Assembly: GCA_964554485.1 (NCBI GenBank) | Contig: CAZKOX010000001.1 | Location: forward strand, 75,363-126,896 | Source of the DNA: an uncultured Candidatus Saccharibacteria bacterium | Lineage (GTDB): Bacteria; Patescibacteriota; Saccharimonadia; Saccharimonadales; JAGQMS01 | Direction of reading: 5' to 3' | Length of the DNA: 51,534 nt | Shown here: positions 12,577-20,072 of the stretch, piece by piece | Numbering within the stretch: position 1 is the first letter of the stretch | Layout: each line of letters begins with the position of its first letter | Notes under the pieces: generated by a model | The model's input: the letters and a program-made list of their open reading frames with translations, nothing else | Databases searched by the model: none | What the model was told of the DNA's origin: nothing | Translations under genes and position numbers: made by a program

Positions 12577-12657
12577 GGGTCGACATTTTTAAGCGTACGA
12601 AGTAAAATAGCAAGCGTCGTTTATCCGAGTAGAAGAATCATTTACAATCAAAGATAT

Positions 12658-12796
12658 GCGCGGGTGGCGAAATGTGAAGAGTGCCGGTGGCACTATGCAA
12701 GACCGGAGCCCTGGATTGCGAATGCAACCAAGGCGAGGTGGGGGCGCGACCGATTTGGTGGCTAGCCACCAAGTAGAATCGTGCCAGACGCACTAG
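12658..12796 (+). pseudogene. 5' fragment of tRNA-Leu interrupted in the D-loop by a 111-nt structured element (copy 1)
   Basis: 12658-12674 equals the first 17 nt of the tRNA and 12786-12796 (AGACGCACTAG) equals tRNA nt 20-30; the intervening 12675-12785 replaces GT. Confidence 0.85.
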
Positions 12797-12856
12797 TAAA
12801 AAGAAATAGCGGCTGAAGTTGACGGGTGAGTAGGTATAATTAACAATCAAGAATAT

Positions 12857-12940
12857 GCGCGGGTGGCGAAATGGTAGACGCACTAGCCTTAGGAGCTAGC
12901 GAGGCAACTCATGGAGGTTCAAGTCCTCTCCCGCGCACCA
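12857..12940 (+). tRNA. tRNA-Leu(TAG)
   Basis: Acceptor GCGCGGG/CCCGCGC; D-loop GG; anticodon arm CTAGC-CTTAGGA-GCTAG; long variable arm; T-arm GGAGG-TTCAAGT-CCTCT; encoded CCA. Confidence 0.98.
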
Positions 12941-12949
12941 AAACAATAT

Positions 12950-12978
12950 GCCGACCCTTGTGGTCGGCTTGTTGCTTT
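12950..12978 (+). terminator. Intrinsic terminator after tRNA-Leu
   Basis: GCCGACC-CTTGT-GGTCGGC followed by TTGTTGCTTT. Confidence 0.7.
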
Positions 12979-12986
12979 GTAGCCGC

Positions 12987-13113
12987 AGGACTTGAACCGT
13001 AGGTGAGATGAGCCGGTGGCTCATCGCAAGGCAGCTTTTCAGATTCAAAGCTATGTTTTGAGTTTGAAAAGTGCGGGGGCGCAGAATGTGCCCAAGTCCT
13101 CTCCCGCGCACCA
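12987..13113 (+). mobile_element. Structured tRNA-associated element (copy 2) ending in a 21-nt duplication of the tRNA 3' end
   Basis: 13093-13113 equals tRNA 12920-12940; 12987-12998 is antisense to the tRNA T-arm; three internal hairpins; motifs shared with copy 1. Confidence 0.75.
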
Positions 13114-13182
13114 ACCAGTCGACTTTTAAAACCAAGTCATTATTGACTAGGGTATGTGTAAGATGAGATATAATTGCACATA

Positions 13183-13665
13183 ATGATACGCCGCACTACT
13201 GCCAGGCCTAAGATAGGCTCAGTGGCGGATAGCGCTGAGCCTGGTAGCACAGACCTTAGCCCAGTCACTGACCTTGACTCCTTCCGGAGACGAGGCCTAG
13301 AGCCGCAGTATCCACCGGATGAGCTGCTTGAGTCGGTTAAGCCAGCTACAGCATGGATGACCTACTTCGTTATAGAGCTACCGACTGCATCTGCCATCCA
13401 CCCAGCACTCTACGATTGTGTCGAAGAACTTCTCGTCGGGCGCCGTCCAGTACTTGATTGCCAGACAGAATCACTTCGTGTTGCTTGCTGGCTAGAGTCC
13501 GAGACACAGGCGACGGCCAATGAGGAGGCCTACGCGGTTGGTCAAGCAGTTGTTGATCTTCTCGGATTATCGCCGGCCTCGATAGTCGAACACGTTCATC
13601 GCTTCTGGACTCGCGCCGACGGAATGATCGACGAAGAGCTGCCGGTTTTGATTCCGTCACTCTGA
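13183..13665 (+). CDS. Hypothetical protein, high GC, probably horizontally acquired
   Basis: ORF 13174-13665 with first ATG at 13183; about 60% GC in two hand-counted 60-nt lines, visibly above the flanking core genes. Confidence 0.6.
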   Translation: MIRRTTARPKIGSVADSAEPGSTDLSPVTDLDSFRRRGLEPQYPPDELLESVKPATAWMTYFVIELPTASAIHPALYDCVEELLVGRRPVLDCQTESLRVACWLESETQATANEEAYAVGQAVVDLLGLSPASIVEHVHRFWTRADGMIDEELPVLIPSL

Positions 13666-13891: not shown

Positions 13892-14338
13892 CTATAGACC
13901 CAAAGGATGAAGAAGAATTGCGCCAACCTTGATTGCCAGATCCTGACGAGCAAGGGCGTGAAGTATTCCACTTTCCATGTCGGACACGGTCAAGCCATGA
14001 ACATCCGTCAATTCTTCTACGGTCTGATCATATGTAGCTTGATAATCTGGTGATGAGAAAACATAAAGGGCACTCAAATCATGGGCGATCCGGCATCCAC
14101 GAACCCATGTGGCCAGATTTGGGCCAACAGATTCGGGGTCTGAGACATAAAGAAAGCCGGTAGCATCCTGTATGTCGGTCCCTGGGAAATCAAACCCTCT
14201 TTCTAGCAGATGTTCAAGAATGGGTTTGCCTTCACCCGCAGCAATCTTGTCGTACAGAAATTGTGTACAACCGCGCGGATTGTGTCGTTGGAATGATGCT
14301 TCGAATTTGCTCCGGGTAATTACAGCCATCAGTGTCAT
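13892..14338 (-). CDS. Hypothetical protein
   Basis: 148-aa ORF with plausible globular composition, divergent from the WhiB-like gene. Confidence 0.6.
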   Translation of the reverse strand: MTLMAVITRSKFEASFQRHNPRGCTQFLYDKIAAGEGKPILEHLLERGFDFPGTDIQDATGFLYVSDPESVGPNLATWVRGCRIAHDLSALYVFSSPDYQATYDQTVEELTDVHGLTVSDMESGILHALARQDLAIKVGAILLHPLGL

Positions 14339-14500
14339 TATAAATTGCTTACCCTCGTTTTATGTGTTGTGGAATGCTCTACGACTGTCTAGAGCGGGGT
14401 TATCATTGGCTTGACTGTTAATAAACCACTAAGAGACCCCACTTGCCCTTGTAAACCTATGAACATGTTTTATTTCGTTAACATATATAATATGAATATT

Positions 14501-14806
14501 ATGAGCTTAGATAGTCAGCCTGATGGCTTAGGAAATAACTGGTGGGCAAATTGGGCGGCCTGCGAGCAGCCTGGTTATGTAATTGATGAAAACTTCATTG
14601 TTTCTCCAGAAGATATACTAAGATCACCAATTGATACATATCGTAGACGGAAAGCTGCAAGAGAAATATGTAATTTGTGCCCGTTTTTTGAGGAATGTGA
14701 ACAAAATGCCAAAAGTTTTAAGGGTGAAGAACATGGTCAATACGGCAGAATATACGCCGGTAGGATATCAGTTTTACTACCCTTGGTCGGTGTTGTGCGG
14801 CTTTAG
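14501..14806 (+). CDS. WhiB-like (Wbl) Fe-S transcription regulator
   Basis: W-A-A-C21-x35-C57-x2-C60-x5-C66 plus GRIYAG turn (canonical G[VI]WGG); likely start ATG 14501 within ORF 14411-14806. Confidence 0.7.
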   Translation: MSLDSQPDGLGNNWWANWAACEQPGYVIDENFIVSPEDILRSPIDTYRRRKAAREICNLCPFFEECEQNAKSFKGEEHGQYGRIYAGRISVLLPLVGVVRL

Positions 14807-14840: not shown

Positions 14841-14868
14841 TTGACAATACTGTTAAAGCTTATATAAT
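14841..14868 (+). promoter_or_regulatory. sigma70 promoter of the His leader / original hisS
   Basis: TTGACA-16nt-TATAAT. Confidence 0.75.
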
Positions 14869-14878
14869 ACTAAGCGTA

Positions 14879-14932
14879 ATGACAACTAATATCACCAGTC
14901 ATACACATCTGTCGCTCCGGTTGATCGGTTAA
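14879..14932 (+). CDS. Putative attenuator leader peptide MTTNITSHTHLSLRLIG
   Basis: 17-codon ORF right after the promoter, with His codons at positions 8 and 10, ending in the antiterminator arm. Confidence 0.6.
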   Translation: MTTNITSHTHLSLRLIG

Positions 14933-14953
14933 CTTTCGATTTATTCATATCTT

Positions 14954-14983
14954 AACGCTCCGATCTACGGAGCGTTTTTCTTT
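14954..14983 (+). terminator. Attenuator terminator
   Basis: AACGCTCCG-ATCTA-CGGAGCGTT followed by TTTCTTT. Confidence 0.85.
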
Positions 14984-15013: not shown

Positions 15014-15125
15014 TAAAATGAAAGCAAATATGTCACAAATTACACAAAGCTACAAAGGAACAAGAGATTTTTACCCCGAAGATAAACGCCTCCAGAAATG
15101 GATGTTTGGCGTAATGCGGTCGGCT
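15014..15125 (+). repeat. 112-bp perfect direct repeat of the hisS 5' end (left copy)
   Basis: Base-by-base identical to 18737-18848. Confidence 0.95.
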
Positions 15126-15158
15126 TGTTGTTTTGTAGCCGCAGGACTTGAACCGTAG
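15018..15158 (+). pseudogene. Truncated hisS fragment (36 HisS codons plus 10 element-derived codons)
   Basis: Same start as hisS; frame runs into element copy 3 and stops at TAG 15156-15158. Confidence 0.85.
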
Positions 15159-15177
15159 GTGAGAAGAGCCGGCGGCT
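15118..15177 (+). repeat. Partial copy 3 of the tRNA terminator arm plus structured element
   Basis: 57/60 nt identical to 12962-13021. Confidence 0.92.
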
Positions 15178-15251: not shown

Positions 15252-18200
15252 ATGCAACAAAAAGTTATAAAAGCGATAAAAAACAAACTATTTCATTTGG
15301 CATTATTTGGTGCGCTACTGCTATTGGTACTGCTTAGCATTAATAATAAATCTGTGCATGCTACAACCTATAGGGACACTATCCTTGCCGAGCCTACGCT
15401 ACTGAACTATTGGCCGATGGATGAGGCTTCTGGTGCTACAAGCCTAAGTCCGGCAGCAGGTGGTACGGTAATTAATCTTACAGGGGCTACGGTAGGTTTA
15501 AGTGGTCAAGTCGACGGAACGGCAGTCTCGTTTAATGGCACAACAAACTTCGGTGTGACCGCATCAAATCTTGACTATACTTCGTACAGTAAACTTGTCG
15601 TTGAAGCACTAATCTTTGTTAGCAGTTACGATAACTCAATACGTATAACTTGGGAACTAAGTCCCTCGGCACTTTCTAATCAAGGAGCATTTTATTTTGC
15701 CCAGGATGTAGGCGGAACTAACAGCCCAACACTTAAGGGTGACGGGGGGTTTAATAACGCAGAATATACTAGACCATCTGCTGGGCAATGGCATCTTTTT
15801 ACGATGGTATACGACACAAGCCCTGGCTCCAATGAAGTAGAAGCATATATTGACGGCGACCTGCAGACTCCTACGAGTAGGCCATTTAACGTAAATAACA
15901 CAAATAACTTTGGAAACTTTGCCTTGTACTTAATGTCGCGAGGCGGTGGAAGTTTTTTTAGCGCTGGCAAGATGCAACACCTGGCAATATATAGTGACCT
16001 GAGTAGTAGCCAGATTGCATTGCATGCTCAAGCAGCGGGTTTGCGCGAACTTCTTCCTGGTACGCTTTCAGAAAGTTCTCGAACCACTACAAGTGCTACG
16101 GTCAGTTGGACTAGCGCAAGCAATGTGTTTAATCCACCTATTATCGCTCAACTACAGCGATCTGCCCATGGTGCGAACAGTTGGTCGAACGTTTCTGGTG
16201 CAACAAGTAGTCCGGCAGTAGACACAGGCTTGAGTGTAGATACAAGCTACGATTATCGAGTTGCTTATACGGACGCTACTGCAACAACTGTGTATTCAAA
16301 TACGCTCGTAGTTACGACCATGAAAGTCTATCCACCGTATACAGCAAATTCTGACACCGTAATTGTTGGTCCGTATGATACAGCCAGATCTGGTGCTGGC
16401 AATTGGAGCCCCGGAGCTGCCGGTTCTGTCCAGTGGCTTGTAGATGGTCATCAATATCGGGTCAGACAATCAGGAACAATCAATCGGCTTAGAATATATA
16501 CACCAAATAATACGAATCTCACTGGATTTTATCTACAAATATGGAGAAAAAATGGTACTACATACGATTTGGTCGGCCAAAGCAACAATATCGCTAGTAG
16601 TTTAGCAAATGCCAGCTTCTCAACTGTAGATTTATTAACCCCAATTTCGGGAGTTCAGATTGGCGATTTTTATGGGGCGCGTATGGAAACATCAGGTTCT
16701 GCTGCAAGTTTTTATGCATATAACCCTGGTAGCGTGGTTAGTAAATTTATCGTAAACCAAACTGCTTCGTTGACAGGGATGGATTGGGCAGCCCAATTTT
16801 CTTCAGCAACTGTCGTACCGATTGAAATGTATATGAGTCCTGCGCCACAAGTAGTGTTTATTGGTGACTCAATTTTCCAGGGCGTTCCTGGTAATTATAG
16901 TTTTTTGGATCCGACTGATACTACAAATTTAGCATCTTCGATCGAGGGTCAGTTTAGTGGTATAACGGGATATACCTATCAGAACATGGGTAAGGGAAGT
17001 GATACAACTGCGATTATAACCTCACGTTTTACCAATGACGTTATAAATTTGCACCCCAGAATCGTTGTTATGGAAGGTGGCGTGAATGATATATATGGTG
17101 GTGCGGTCACAAAGGCGCAATTTTTGGCTAACTGGACTACAAATCTTGCCGCCGCTCAAGCCAGCAGCAGCATTTCGAAAATATTGGTTTTAAAAATTTT
17201 GCCCTGGACTAATGGCACGAATGTACAGAATCAAACGAGAGATGATTGGAACGCTGCTTTAGAAACACTAGTTGCAAACTACTCTAAAGCTACAGTGGTG
17301 GACGCAAGCACATATGTAGGCCAATTTAGATCTGGGGGTGACGTAGGGAATCTATGGGATATACAAACAGCATTTAGCGCCGATGGCGTTCATTTTAACC
17401 AAACCGGACATGGCCAGATTGCTCAGGCGCTAGTGGATTCCATCGATACTACGATACCAACCATTACTAATATCTCTTCTAATAAGGTTAATGGTTATTA
17501 CAAAACAGGGGAAGTCATAGATATTGATATTACTTTTTCTGAAGCCGTAAGCTCGACTGGCGACGTGACAGTAACATTAGAAACTGGAGCAACCGACCGG
17601 ACTTGTACATTTACTGTCACTAGCAGCACAACCGGTACCTGCAACTATACTGTTCAAGCCGGGGATGCGTCAGATGACCTCACAGTTAGCTTAATTTCTG
17701 GTACTATCGCCGACGAAGTTGAAAACTCTATGTCCGTCTTTAGCCCTGTGACAAATCTTGCGGCGAATAAGACATTGATTATTGATACGAGAGCGCCAAC
17801 GATATCAGCCGTTACGCTAATATCATCCCCGACAAGTGATGTCACTCCAAGTTACGCCTTTACGACTGACGAGACTGGCACTGTCGGTTATGGCGGCGCT
17901 TGCAGCTCAACAACTACAACCGCGCTTGCTGGGGTTAACATCGTTACTTTTATATCATTAGCCGATGGAACATATACCAATTGTACGATTACAATTACCG
18001 ACACAGCTACAAATGTATCTAATACGCTAGCAGTAGCCAGCTTTACTATCGATACCTCTACGCCTGCATCAACATCAGCGCCTGCTCCTGTGACTGCAAC
18101 TTCTTCGACAATCGATGATATCCCTGAACCAGAAGTTGAGCAGGTAAGATATAACACAGTCACTTTCGCTAACTCTAGTAACGGTGCCGCTATCCAGCTT

Positions 18201-18686
18201 GAAACCCCTGAAGGCACTACAATAACTTGTTCTGCCTCAGTAGCTGAGAGTACGCTAAGTAACCAAGATTCTGAACATAGTTACCCCGTGGGACTAGTCG
18301 ACTTCTGCCTTACTGTACCTATCGGATCAACTAACACTATAAAACTAACATTTGTAACTAATCTTGCCCTAGATGACGTAATGGCGTTTAAATTCAGCAA
18401 CGAAGTCGGCACATATACAGAAGTGCGGAATGCAACTATTACAGAAACAATGTTAGGTAATCAGCGTGCCTTGTTGGTTGCTTACCAGGTAACAGATGGC
18501 GGCGAACTAGACGGCGACAGTACTGTAAACGGGACAATTCTTGATCCAATTGGGTTGGCTGCTTCTAATGATCCAGAGTCCAGTATCAGTACAACGACTC
18601 CACCGTATTTGTTGATTACGCTTAGCATAATTGGAGTTAGTGGGTTACTTATATTTATAGCAGCTAACATTAGGGCTAGGCGCTAG
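15252..18686 (+). CDS. Large surface protein: signal peptide, LamG/ConA-like, FN3, SGNH hydrolase, Ig-like repeats, choice-of-anchor-U-like domain, C-terminal TM
   Basis: Signal ending VHA; LLNYWPMDE..WHLFTMVYD..YIDG (LamG); FIGDSI, GGVND and DGVH (SGNH blocks); DGGELDGDSTVNGTILDP; hydrophobic tail plus RARR. Confidence 0.8.
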   Translation: MQQKVIKAIKNKLFHLALFGALLLLVLLSINNKSVHATTYRDTILAEPTLLNYWPMDEASGATSLSPAAGGTVINLTGATVGLSGQVDGTAVSFNGTTNFGVTASNLDYTSYSKLVVEALIFVSSYDNSIRITWELSPSALSNQGAFYFAQDVGGTNSPTLKGDGGFNNAEYTRPSAGQWHLFTMVYDTSPGSNEVEAYIDGDLQTPTSRPFNVNNTNNFGNFALYLMSRGGGSFFSAGKMQHLAIYSDLSSSQIALHAQAAGLRELLPGTLSESSRTTTSATVSWTSASNVFNPPIIAQLQRSAHGANSWSNVSGATSSPAVDTGLSVDTSYDYRVAYTDATATTVYSNTLVVTTMKVYPPYTANSDTVIVGPYDTARSGAGNWSPGAAGSVQWLVDGHQYRVRQSGTINRLRIYTPNNTNLTGFYLQIWRKNGTTYDLVGQSNNIASSLANASFSTVDLLTPISGVQIGDFYGARMETSGSAASFYAYNPGSVVSKFIVNQTASLTGMDWAAQFSSATVVPIEMYMSPAPQVVFIGDSIFQGVPGNYSFLDPTDTTNLASSIEGQFSGITGYTYQNMGKGSDTTAIITSRFTNDVINLHPRIVVMEGGVNDIYGGAVTKAQFLANWTTNLAAAQASSSISKILVLKILPWTNGTNVQNQTRDDWNAALETLVANYSKATVVDASTYVGQFRSGGDVGNLWDIQTAFSADGVHFNQTGHGQIAQALVDSIDTTIPTITNISSNKVNGYYKTGEVIDIDITFSEAVSSTGDVTVTLETGATDRTCTFTVTSSTTGTCNYTVQAGDASDDLTVSLISGTIADEVENSMSVFSPVTNLAANKTLIIDTRAPTISAVTLISSPTSDVTPSYAFTTDETGTVGYGGACSSTTTTALAGVNIVTFISLADGTYTNCTITITDTATNVSNTLAVASFTIDTSTPASTSAPAPVTATSSTIDDIPEPEVEQVRYNTVTFANSSNGAAIQLETPEGTTITCSASVAESTLSNQDSEHSYPVGLVDFCLTVPIGSTNTIKLTFVTNLALDDVMAFKFSNEVGTYTEVRNATITETMLGNQRALLVAYQVTDGGELDGDSTVNGTILDPIGLAASNDPESSISTTTPPYLLITLSIIGVSGLLIFIAANIRARR

Positions 18687-18736: not shown

Positions 18737-18848
18737 TAAAATGAAAGCAAATATGTCACAAATTACACAAAGCTACAAAGGAACAAGAGATTTTTACCCC
18801 GAAGATAAACGCCTCCAGAAATGGATGTTTGGCGTAATGCGGTCGGCT
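18737..18848 (+). repeat. 112-bp direct repeat (right copy, start of intact hisS)
   Basis: Identical to 15014-15125. Confidence 0.95.
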
Positions 18849-20072
18849 GTTGAGAGATTTGGCTACGAAGAATATGATGCACCGGTATTGGAAAGCACTG
18901 AGCTTTTCAAAATGAAAGGTAGCGAAGAAATTATTGACGACCAAACCTATACCTTTGAAGATCGTGGTGGCCGTAGTGTTACGCTTCGCACCGAAATGAC
19001 CCCGAGCGTTAGTCGAATGGTAGCTGCCAAACGTCAAGAGCTGGCGTATCCGCTGCGTTGGTATTCAATTCCGAACCTGTGGCGCTATGAAAGACCGCAG
19101 CGTGGACGACTTCGCGAATTCTGGCAACTAAACGTTGATATTTTTGGTGTTGAAGGACTAGAAGCTGAATTTGAAGTTATTCAAGTGGCGGATTCGATCA
19201 TGCAAGCATTTAATGCAAAGCGCGCCAGCTACACAATCAAACTTAATAGCCGAGTATTTGTTGATGAATTATTAACGAAATACATCGGTCTTGACGGTGT
19301 AGAAGTAAACACTATTCGCAGATTAATTGATAAAAAAGACAAACTTGAGCAGACGGAATTTGCGGCCGGCGTCGATGCAGCCATGAATCCTACGCAGCGT
19401 GAAAGCGGTGCATCCGATAAGCTTTTAGCAGTTTTAGGTGCTAAGTCGGTTGCTGAATTGCCAGAGGATCTAAGAAATGTCGCAAGTCTTCAAAAACTAA
19501 CTAAACTACTCGGTCAGTTAAGAGATTCTGGAATCACCAATGTTGAGTTTGACGTGAGTTTAATGCGTGGGTTTGACTATTACACCGATATTGTTTTTGA
19601 AGTATTTGACGAAAACCCTGAAAATAATCGTTCGATGTTTGGCGGTGGTCGTTATGACGGCCTAGTTGGTCTGTTCGGTGTGGAACCTGTGCCGACGGTT
19701 GGTTTTGGAATGGGAGATGTGACTCTTGAGAACTTCTTGAGAGATAACGACCTAATACCAAAGCTAAAAACCGAAACTGAACTGTATATTGCACTAATCG
19801 GTGATGTGTTTGTCGATGCACAAAAACTAATTACAAAGCTTCGTGACGAGGGAGTAAGCGTTGCAGTTGATGTCACAGACCGAAAACTCGGTAAACAGAT
19901 AGAAACAGCCGTAAAAAAAGGCATTCAGTATCTGTTGGTAATTGGCGAAGAAGAGCTGAAAACCGAGAAGTTTAAGTTGAAAGATCTACAAACTGGCAAC
20001 GAGGATGAGCGCTCTCTAGAACGAATCGTTTCAATTGTGCGCGCTAGAGGTGACAAATCTTTAATTGATTGA
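18741..20072 (+). CDS. hisS: Histidine--tRNA ligase
   Basis: KGTRDF, LRTEMT, RYERPQRGRLREFWQ, RGFDYYT, GGGRYD, anticodon-binding domain. Confidence 0.97.
   Translation: MKANMSQITQSYKGTRDFYPEDKRLQKWMFGVMRSAVERFGYEEYDAPVLESTELFKMKGSEEIIDDQTYTFEDRGGRSVTLRTEMTPSVSRMVAAKRQELAYPLRWYSIPNLWRYERPQRGRLREFWQLNVDIFGVEGLEAEFEVIQVADSIMQAFNAKRASYTIKLNSRVFVDELLTKYIGLDGVEVNTIRRLIDKKDKLEQTEFAAGVDAAMNPTQRESGASDKLLAVLGAKSVAELPEDLRNVASLQKLTKLLGQLRDSGITNVEFDVSLMRGFDYYTDIVFEVFDENPENNRSMFGGGRYDGLVGLFGVEPVPTVGFGMGDVTLENFLRDNDLIPKLKTETELYIALIGDVFVDAQKLITKLRDEGVSVAVDVTDRKLGKQIETAVKKGIQYLLVIGEEELKTEKFKLKDLQTGNEDERSLERIVSIVRARGDKSLID

What the first reader, a model, noticed from the sequence alone, without database searches (positions are those of the whole stretch)
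13892..14806. WhiB-like Fe-S regulator in a CPR accessory island, divergent from an orphan gene
Seen: WAAC-x35-CxxC-x5-C and GRIYAG, with no AT-hook; the first Cys spacing is longer than the usual ~20 residues. The gene is transcribed divergently from the 148-aa orphan at 13892-14338. Established: WhiB proteins are characteristic of Actinobacteria and their phages and bind region 4 of the primary sigma factor through a 4Fe-4S cluster; cultured Saccharibacteria are epibionts of Actinobacteria. Inference: a host- or phage-derived regulator repurposed for the epibiont's own sigma70, for redox/NO sensing, or for host manipulation.
Basis: partly seen in the sequence, partly recalled or inferred. 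Interest (0 to 1): 0.7.

Follow-up and report, generated by a model that had tools for sequence, protein, structure and literature searches.

The report
Divergent WhiB-like gene in a Saccharibacterium
A small gene in a wastewater Saccharibacterium encodes a real but very unusual relative of the WhiB iron-sulfur regulators, which papers describe as exclusive to Actinobacteria and their phages; it is a long-standing resident beside a tRNA gene, not cargo of the foreign genes next to it.

Summary
ORF 14492/14501-14806 (+) encodes a 101-104 aa protein with C24-x35-C60-x2-C63-x5-C69, GRIYAG and no AT-hook. It is divergent from the orphan ORF 13892-14338 (-).

It is a Wbl homologue at the edge of the family. 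Pfam PF02467 gives 24.2 bits against a cut-off of 23.6, PHROG WhiB gives 1.6e-6, and hhalign against 21 Wbl domains of the same order gives 94.5% (E 7.8e-8). Structure prediction was uninformative.

Only one other lineage carries it among 1.84 billion representative proteins and 400 genomes of the order. Those copies are 60% identical, keep all four Cys and show strong purifying selection. There the order is tRNA-Leu, wbl, hisS, packed tightly. So wbl is a native resident, and ORF163/ORF148 and a 3.7-kb surface-protein gene are later insertions.

Wbl domains occur in 60% of genomes of this order and almost nowhere else in the phylum. The primary sigma factor lacks the canonical Wbl-binding His-Pro (KLRKHKD). 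Only a sigma70-Wbl fusion protein elsewhere in the genome keeps it.

Most likely function, inferred: a cluster-binding modulator that docks on sigma region 4 and has no DNA-binding tail. A phage origin is weakly supported.

The parts
14492..14806 (+). wbl: 104-aa divergent WhiB-like protein (alternative start ATG 14501 gives 101 aa; stop TAG 14804-14806)
   Evidence: ORF. Pfam Whib 24.2 bits against cut-off 23.6. PHROG 472 E 1.6e-6. hhalign 94.5%. Homologue P0002 60% identical, E 5e-40. Identity by codon position 71/80/41%.
14561..14698 (+). Four-Cys motif C24-x35-C60-x2-C63-x5-C69
   Evidence: Read from the sequence. Invariant in P0001, P0002 and P0036 and in all aligned Wbls.
14744..14761 (+). 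GRIYAG, a degenerate counterpart of the Wbl G[V/I]WGG turn (DRVFAG in the homologue)
   Evidence: MAFFT aligns it with GIWAG/GVWGG. hhalign instead puts Y84 on the Trp. Both positions keep an aromatic residue in the homologue.
14762..14803 (+). Conserved hydrophobic C-terminal tail (RISVLLPLVGVVRL) in place of the basic SERERRR-type tail
   Evidence: mean Kyte-Doolittle 2.1.
13892..14338 (-). ORF148: divergently oriented orphan, GC 0.48, not linked to wbl in other organisms
   Evidence: Absent from L011 and L115.
13174..13665 (+). ORF163: orphan with foreign composition (GC 0.55, GC3 0.53)
12857..12940 (+). tRNA-Leu(TAG), the left anchor of the locus
   Evidence: ARAGORN and Rfam. The same tRNA lies 5 nt upstream of wbl in L115.
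13093..13114 (+). Exact 22-nt duplicate of the tRNA-Leu 3' end (att-like)
   Evidence: the repeat finder family D5.
12959..13021 (+). Left copy of a 63-nt direct repeat (right copy 15115-15177, 94% identical) that brackets ORF163, ORF148, wbl and the hisS fragment
   Evidence: the repeat finder family D1.
14841..14976 (+). Perfect TTGACA-16-TATAAT promoter (14841-14868) and terminator hairpin (14954-14976): the hisS leader downstream of wbl
15014..15125 (+). Truncated hisS 5' fragment, a 112-bp exact copy of 18737-18848
15252..18686 (+). 1144-aa GDSL-domain surface protein gene, a strain-specific insertion between wbl and hisS
   Evidence: Pfam. A contig from run X5 joins 15013 directly to 18737.
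18741..20072 (+). Intact hisS, the right anchor of the locus
   Evidence: Pfam. hisS follows wbl by 24 nt in L011 and L115.

Best explanation
The gene encodes a genuine, selected, stand-alone member of the WhiB-like (Wbl) superfamily at the far edge of that family.

Shown:
- Homology to Wbl domains.
- Four invariant Cys in Wbl order.
- Aromatic residues at the Wbl aromatic-patch positions by alignment: W18 for AP1, F35 for AP2/3, Y84 or Y88 for AP4.
- Purifying selection.
- Native base composition.
- A fixed place between tRNA-Leu and hisS in a narrow lineage.

Inferred:
- The four Cys hold a [4Fe-4S] cluster.
- The protein docks on region 4 of a sigma factor next to the cluster, as all studied Wbls do.
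- It has a conserved hydrophobic tail instead of a basic or AT-hook tail. It would therefore modulate the polymerase without reading DNA itself, like WhiB1 or the minimal actinophage Wbls. It would respond to O2, NO or redox state through cluster loss.
- Partner: the primary sigma has KLRKHKD instead of KLRHPS. The likeliest partner is therefore the genome's sigma70-Wbl fusion protein, the only sigma here with His-Pro. The alternative is the primary sigma through its shifted His.
- Origin: an old capture of a minimal phage-type Wbl at the tRNA-Leu site. It was later separated from the tRNA by insertion of ORF163/ORF148.
For: - Family match: Pfam PF02467 24.2 bits against 23.6, E 5e-5; five WhiB-annotated PHROGs below E 0.002, best 1.6e-6; hhalign against 21 Wbl domains of the order gives 94.5%, E 7.8e-8, collinear from W18 to Y84.
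- All 19 weak tblastn hits in phages fall in actinophage WhiB genes. The top PDB sequence hits are WhiB4 and WhiB3.
- Conservation and selection: P0002 is 60% identical; all four Cys, W17/W18, F35 and the tail are invariant. pN 0.22 against pS 0.87.
- The sequence is identical in independent wastewater and activated-sludge studies.
- Synteny tRNA-Leu/wbl/hisS in L011 and L115.
- Composition matches the genome, while ORF163 and ORF148 do not.
- Sigma data. A second sigma-Wbl fusion also keeps KLRHPS.
- Wbl is a normal part of this order's repertoire: 90 of 151 genomes.
- Tree: the target clade (99/97) joins Gordonia phage Jumbo gp47 and an actinophage-like contig at 96/95.
Against: - The Pfam score is marginal, and the homologue P0002 scores 20.0 bits, below the cut-off.
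- The canonical G[V/I]WGG turn and the basic tail are absent.
- AlphaFold models were poor (pLDDT 43.7 and 57.0), and Foldseek found no WhiB structure. The fold is therefore unconfirmed.
- The primary sigma lacks canonical His-Pro.
Only a YrvO/IscS-type desulfurase next to mnmA was found.
- There are no RNA data, and no consensus promoter lies upstream.
- The phage grouping rests on long branches and on taxa picked by similarity.
Confidence: 0.55

Rival explanations
1. The gene is the last surviving gene of a degraded phage or integrative element at tRNA-Leu. It acts as phage Wbls do, for example as a sigma-directed takeover or exclusion factor against phages of the Saccharibacterium, and not as a housekeeping redox regulator.
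For: - It lies 5-20 nt after tRNA-Leu in L115 and L011.
- There is a 22-nt tRNA 3'-end duplicate and other repeats at the site.
- It groups with two actinophage minimal Wbls. Like Jumbo gp47, it lacks the basic tail.
- It is absent from 400 other genomes of the order.
Against: - There is no integrase or other phage gene nearby.
- Composition is fully native.
- Its divergence (60%) matches that of the neighbouring HisS (64%), as expected for vertical descent.
- PADLOC gives no hit.
Confidence: 0.15
2. The protein is an effector aimed at the actinobacterial host. The epibiont delivers this minimal Wbl into the host, where it captures host SigA region 4 as actinophage Wbls do.
For: - The organism's own primary sigma lacks the canonical His-Pro, which actinobacterial SigA carries.
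- The nearest relatives in the tree are actinophage Wbls.
- Cultured Saccharibacteria live on Actinobacteria (PMC10633639, abstract).
Against: - There is no signal peptide or recognisable secretion tag in the sequence.
- The gene is packed between a tRNA and hisS, in what looks like an operon with them in L115.
- The host of this organism is unknown.
- An in-cell partner with His-Pro exists: the sigma-Wbl fusion.
Confidence: 0.07
3. It is a four-Cys metal or thiol-disulfide protein that does not work through sigma. It could be a small redox or Zn protein whose Wbl ancestry no longer reflects its function.
For: - The Gly turn is degenerate, the DNA tail is lost, and there is a new hydrophobic tail and a conserved N-terminal SQPxxLG segment.
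- No U-type Fe-S scaffold was found.
- The primary sigma lacks His-Pro.
Against: - The aromatic-patch positions that serve sigma binding are kept under selection.
- Every Wbl tested so far binds sigma region 4.
Confidence: 0.15
4. It is a decaying or spurious ORF with no function.
For: - It has almost no homologues.
- The codon score is about 2 SD below that of long genes.
- There is no promoter call and no RNA data.
Against: - pN 0.22 against saturated pS, with a third-position identity of 41%.
- The frame is intact in three contigs from different samples.
Confidence: 0.03

Closest known systems
Actinobacterial Wbl proteins, e.g. M. tuberculosis WhiB1 (PDB 6ONO), WhiB3 (8CWR), WhiB4 (7F7N)
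   Same: Small size. Cys motif C-Xn-C-X2-C-X5-C. Trp six residues before the first Cys. A hydrophobic/aromatic stretch after it. The KAAxxIC..CP..EC core. An aromatic residue in the turn region. These are the top PDB sequence hits.
   Different: The x35 loop (x27 in the WhiB1-like L014; x22 is typical in the order). GRIYAG/DRVFAG instead of G[V/I]WGG. No basic C-terminal helix or AT-hook. A conserved hydrophobic tail. The host is a Saccharibacterium whose primary sigma lacks the canonical His-Pro.
Minimal actinophage Wbls (Gordonia phage Jumbo gp47, YP_009291012.1; the uncultured actinophage-like protein P0020)
   Same: Best full-length pairwise matches (32% over 74 aa, 36 bits). CPVF.(D/E)C core. 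A GIWAG-type turn. No basic tail: gp47 ends right after the turn. They group with the target clade at 96/95.
   Different: Very long branches. The phage proteins keep the Trp and Gly of the turn. They lie in phage genomes of 60% or higher GC, and not next to a tRNA in a 43% GC cellular genome.
'GIWAG' Wbls of Saccharimonadales (P0004 = DYH10_03530 of Candidatus Saccharibacteria bacterium CPR2; P0005-P0007)
   Same: Same order of bacteria. An Ala in the turn (G-I-W-A-G). Long first loops (x28-x44). Non-basic tails with a Pro-x-x-Gly pattern (FPSPITGRIRIR against LLPLVGVVRL).
   Different: Only 20-30% identical. They pass Pfam comfortably and keep the Trp. They do not group with the target in the tree.
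Sigma70-Wbl fusion proteins of Saccharibacteria (own genome C11:10002-11402; P0023)
   Same: They show that the Wbl/sigma-region-4 partnership operates in this lineage. They are the only sigma factors found here with KLRHPS.
   Different: In them the Wbl domain is canonical (67 bits, GIWGG, SERERRG) and covalently tethered. The target is free-standing and divergent.

Membership tests
Wbl / WhiB-like family (Pfam PF02467) | Four conserved Cys, C-Xn-C-X2-C-X5-C | tested here: met
   C24, C60, C63 and C69. They are invariant in P0001, P0002 and P0036 and align with the Cys of 21 and 19 other Wbls.
Wbl / WhiB-like family (Pfam PF02467) | Score at or above the Pfam gathering threshold (23.6 bits) | tested here: inconclusive
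   P0001 scores 24.2 bits as the 104-aa form and 23.5 as the 131-aa ORF. P0002 scores 20.0 bits. The profile-profile comparison is clear: 94.5%, E 7.8e-8.
Wbl / WhiB-like family (Pfam PF02467) | Gly-rich beta-turn G[V/I]WGG | tested here: not met
   GRIYAG and DRVFAG. Trp is replaced by Tyr or Phe, and one or two Gly are lost. GIWAG variants exist in the order and in phages.
Wbl / WhiB-like family (Pfam PF02467) | Aromatic patch AP1-4 (W3, F17, F18, W60 of WhiB1): at least two aromatics, with at least one at AP2-3 (10.1101/2025.06.05.653497) | tested here: met
   By sequence alignment only: W18 (AP1), F35 in DENFIV aligned to DPxIFF (AP2/3), Y84 or Y88 (AP4). All are conserved or aromatic in P0002. 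No structural alignment was possible.
Wbl / WhiB-like family (Pfam PF02467) | WhiB1-like four-helix fold around the cluster | tested here: inconclusive
   AlphaFold pLDDT was 43.7 (single sequence) and 57.0 (21-row alignment). The helices at 14-20, 46-62 and 66-75 fit h1-h3, but Foldseek found nothing in PDB or BFVD.
Wbl / WhiB-like family (Pfam PF02467) | Binds a [4Fe-4S] cluster | not testable with these tools
   This needs anaerobic purification or reconstitution. An IscS/YrvO-type desulfurase is encoded (C14:2263-3405). No IscU/SufU hit was found, and SUF was not checked.
Wbl / WhiB-like family (Pfam PF02467) | Binds region 4 of the primary sigma factor at His516-Pro517 | tested here: inconclusive
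   Binding itself cannot be tested here. On the partner side, the primary sigma has KLRKHKD, so no canonical His-Pro (30 of 30 genomes of the order). The sigma-Wbl fusion has KLRHPSQS.
WhiB7 subclass | C-terminal AT-hook (RGRP) | tested here: not met
   No such motif is present, and the tail is hydrophobic.
tRNA-integrated genomic island or prophage remnant | Integrase or other mobility gene, direct repeats of the tRNA 3' end, foreign composition | tested here: not met
   The repeats are present (22 nt and 63 nt). There is no integrase or other phage domain. wbl has native composition, and only ORF163/ORF148 look foreign.

The most novel reading that the evidence does not exclude
This minimal, tail-less Wbl of actinophage type is used by the epibiont against a sigma factor that is not its own housekeeping sigma. 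In the boldest form it is delivered into the actinobacterial host and captures host SigA at its His-Pro site. The epibiont's own primary sigma (KLRKHKD) would be naturally immune to it.
Probability: 0.06. Interest if true: 0.85.

Novelty: new variant of a known kind. Interest (0 to 1): 0.48.

Why it matters
Reviews and a 2025 preprint still state that Wbl proteins occur only in Actinobacteria and actinophages (PMC6282962; 10.1101/2025.06.05.653497).

Here a 660-kb Saccharibacterium carries three Wbl modules, and 60% of genomes in its order carry at least one. The housekeeping sigma of the order lacks the canonical Wbl docking residues.

This gene is the most divergent of the three. It tests how far the Wbl scaffold can drift (turn, tail, loop length) and still be kept by selection. 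With the sigma-Wbl fusion in the same genome, it offers a compact system for asking which sigma a free Wbl binds when the primary sigma has lost His-Pro.

The gene itself remains one rare family member without functional data.

Tried and rejected
**Searches for more relatives**
- Word-index search with P0001: singleton.
- The search for related loci and a back-translated CNLCPxFEECE pattern in genome and metagenome contigs: nothing.
- A1 profile over 400 genomes of the order: only a 19-bit hit.

**Structure**
- Two AlphaFold runs gave low confidence. Foldseek against PDB returned no matches, and against BFVD only meaningless ones.

**Expression and regulation**
- No RNA runs hold the stretch.
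- There is no sigma70-type promoter upstream of wbl. By eye there is only a TATAAT at 14486-14491, without a -35 at a proper spacing.

**ORF148 as a functional partner, toxin-antitoxin pair or defence gene**
- No family, PADLOC, PDB or phage hit. It is absent beside wbl in L011 and L115. Rejected.

**WhiB7-like AT-hook regulator**
- Rejected: there is no AT-hook.

**Fresh horizontal import of wbl together with the island**
- Rejected on composition and synteny.

**Similarity scores as a guide to origin**
- Phage and plasmid Wbls score 31-37 bits and order Wbls up to 33 bits. This is too close to discriminate.

**Upstream of hisS in close relatives**
- The region upstream of hisS in genomes of the same genus and family holds no tRNA and no wbl.

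**Fe-S assembly check**

Full report
**1. Observation**

The + strand ORF listed as 14411-14806 contains WAAC, then 35 residues, then CNLC, PFFEE and C, and further on GRIYAG. Counted from ATG 14492 (protein P0001, 104 aa, 11.9 kDa, pI 5.1) the cysteines are C24, C60, C63 and C69.

There is no AT-hook. The last 14 residues are hydrophobic (RISVLLPLVGVVRL).

The 148-aa ORF 13892-14338 lies on the opposite strand, about 155 nt away.

The upstream TTG start is unlikely. Conservation with the homologues starts at S-x-[DE]-SQP, and in one homologous contig the gene begins 5 nt after a tRNA.

**2. Is it a Wbl?**

- Pfam PF02467 gives 24.2 bits (E 5e-5) for the 104-aa form against a gathering score of 23.6. 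The 131-aa ORF gives 23.5, and the homologue P0002 only 20.0.
- Five WhiB-annotated PHROGs match below E 0.002, the best at 1.6e-6.
- A two-sequence profile of the family was aligned to 21 Wbl domains from the same bacterial order. hhalign gave 94.5% probability, E 7.8e-8, collinear over 57 columns from W18 to Y84.
- All 19 weak tblastn hits in 50,697 phage records lie in actinophage WhiB genes.
- The best PDB sequence hits are WhiB4 and WhiB3, but only at E about 0.75.
- The structure check failed. AlphaFold gave pLDDT 43.7 without an alignment and 57.0 with 21 rows. Foldseek found no relevant match in PDB or BFVD. The predicted helices (14-20, 46-62, 66-75) are compatible with Wbl helices h1-h3 but prove nothing.

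A 2025 preprint names the family's features: four Cys, a Gly-rich turn, and an aromatic patch W3/F17/F18/W60 that contacts sigma His516-Pro517. By sequence alignment the protein keeps the following:

- the Cys;
- a Trp six residues before the first Cys (W18);
- an aromatic residue in DENFIV where other Wbls have DPxIFFP (F35);
- an aromatic residue in the turn region (Y88 by MAFFT; Y84 by hhalign).

The canonical G[V/I]WGG turn is not kept (GRIYAG, and DRVFAG in the homologue). The basic SERERRR-type tail seen in almost all Wbls of the order is replaced by the hydrophobic tail.

I file it as a divergent variant of the family, not a standard member.

**3. Is it a real gene?**

An exhaustive phmmer search over 1.84 billion representative proteins found one true homologue: P0002, 101 aa, 60% identical, E 5e-40. 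A near-copy of it, P0036, lies on a second contig.

Between P0001 and P0002, identity by codon position is 71, 80 and 41%. pN is 0.22 and pS is 0.87, which is saturated. This is strong purifying selection.

Contigs from independent wastewater and activated-sludge studies carry the identical sequence.

No further member was found:
- in JGI metagenome contigs or GTDB species genomes;
- in 400 genomes of the same order;
- in genomes of the same genus or family.

**4. Context**

In the two homologous contigs the order is tRNA-Leu, wbl, hisS, with 5-20 nt and 24 nt spacers. Upstream in L115 is a UPF0259 membrane protein gene.

The window has the same anchors: tRNA-Leu(TAG) at 12857-12940 and hisS at 18741-20072. 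Two insertions separate them from wbl.

*Insertion between the tRNA and wbl (about 1.56 kb).* It holds repeat elements, an exact 22-nt duplicate of the tRNA 3' end, and the two orphans ORF163 and ORF148. ORF163 has GC 0.55 and ORF148 has GC 0.48. wbl has GC 0.42 and the genome 0.43.

*Insertion between wbl and hisS.* A 1144-aa GDSL surface-protein gene is flanked by a 112-bp exact duplication of the hisS 5' end. A contig in run X5 lacks this 3.7-kb insert. It joins an identical wbl segment to a hisS allele that is 14% diverged, mostly at third codon positions. That is either recombination at this locus or an assembly chimera.

Wbl divergence (60%) is close to that of the adjacent HisS (64%). 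This fits joint vertical descent.

So wbl is a resident of a recombination-prone tRNA/hisS junction. It is not cargo of the foreign ORFs, and ORF148 is not a conserved partner.

**5. The wider setting**

The genome (660 kb, 23 contigs) shares a GTDB order with 'Candidatus Saccharibacteria bacterium CPR2'.

PF02467 matches occur in 90 of 151 genomes of that order, with one to four copies each. They occur in 1 of about 280 other genomes of the phylum. Current papers call the family exclusive to Actinobacteria and actinophages. No open paper in the library links WhiB to Saccharibacteria themselves.

This genome has two further Wbl domains, both canonical. One ends a 445-aa protein. The other is fused to the C-terminus of a complete sigma70 factor with regions 1.2, 2, 3 and 4. 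A second such fusion, P0023, exists elsewhere.

**6.

The primary sigma (C2:77370-78515) ends …AKALAKLRKHKDAKRLLDYIR. The canonical KLRHPSRS is replaced. The same KLRKH[KR]D is found in 30 of 30 orthologues of the order.

Across the phylum this site varies, and the canonical form appears in only 2 of 29 sampled genomes.

Both sigma-Wbl fusions keep KLRHPS, 14-16 residues before the Wbl Trp.

A free Wbl in this cell therefore meets either a sigma with a shifted His and no Pro, or a sigma whose docking site already has a tethered Wbl.

**7. Origin**

In a 57-row maximum-likelihood tree, P0001 and P0002 (99/97) group at 96/95 with two proteins:
- Gordonia phage Jumbo gp47, which like the target ends right after the turn;
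- P0020, which lies on a 62% GC contig with actinophage-type tail genes.

The branches are long, and the phage rows were chosen by similarity. Pairwise scores do not separate phage Wbls from order Wbls. A phage-type origin is therefore only weakly supported.

**8. Mechanism**

The best reading (confidence about 0.55) is a cluster-binding Wbl module without a DNA-contacting tail. It would dock on sigma region 4 and tune transcription in response to redox state, O2 or NO.

Homology, conservation, selection and context are shown. Cluster binding, the sigma partner and the signal are inferred.

One caveat concerns cluster assembly. 

**9. Verdict**

The gene is a rare, divergent variant of a known family. 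The more notable facts are the lineage-wide ones: Wbl is common in Saccharimonadales, the primary sigma lacks His-Pro, and sigma-Wbl fusions keep it. This scan has already met these facts in other genomes.

Noticed in passing
own genome C11:10002-11402 (locus L002:340-1737), outside the window: A 466-aa sigma70 factor (regions 1.2, 2, 3, 4) is fused at its C-terminus to a canonical Wbl domain. KLRHPSQS is kept 14 residues before the Wbl Trp. A second example, P0023 (446 aa), has KLRHPSSS.
   Followed up: partly
own genome C2:77370-78515 (L045) and loci L046-L074, L085-L113: The primary sigma of 30 of 30 genomes of the order ends KLRKH[KR]D instead of KLRHPSRS. Across the phylum the site varies, and the canonical His-Pro appears in only 2 of 29 sampled genomes.
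   Followed up: yes
order- and phylum-wide: PF02467 domains occur in 90 of 151 genomes of the order, with one to four copies each. They occur in about 1 of 280 other genomes of the phylum. Many of them end proteins of 300-450 aa.
   Followed up: partly
own genome C14:8892-10229 (L001:376-1713): A 445-aa protein has a canonical C-terminal Wbl domain (70 bits) and an N-terminal 370 aa without any Pfam match.
   Followed up: no
L014 (G037:C1:495210-495416): An 80-aa protein is almost actinobacterial WhiB1 in sequence (MMDWRHRAACRDEDPELFFP…GVWGGMTEDERRALKRR) and lies in a Saccharimonadales genome. This is either host contamination or very recent transfer.
   Followed up: no
window 15014-15125 and 18737-18848; 15252-18686: A 112-bp exact duplication of the hisS 5' end flanks a 1144-aa GDSL surface-protein gene. 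A contig in run X5 lacks the 3.7-kb insert. It joins an identical wbl segment to a hisS allele that is 14% diverged.
   Followed up: partly
window 12637-13114: There is a pseudo-copy of the tRNA-Leu 5' part with a ~110-nt insert, and a related element after the real tRNA. That element ends in an exact 22-nt copy of the tRNA 3' end.
   Followed up: no
L011:1-64 against L115:933-1016: Two closely related contigs share the 3' half of the tRNA upstream of wbl but differ in the anticodon arm. L115 reads TAG. By eye L011 reads GAG, but only the 3' part of that tRNA lies on the contig.
   Followed up: no
G422:C3:61383-62854; L005 (G006:C2:9354-9965): There are clusters of Wbl genes in other genomes of the order: four in a row in G422 and two in tandem in G006.
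   Followed up: no
own genome C14:1188-3405: An IscS/YrvO-type cysteine desulfurase has NGGK in place of SGHK at the PLP lysine and lies next to mnmA.
   Followed up: partly
window 14841-14983: A perfect TTGACA-16-TATAAT promoter and a terminator hairpin lie between wbl and the truncated hisS copy. In L011 and L115 hisS follows wbl after only 24 nt.
   Followed up: no
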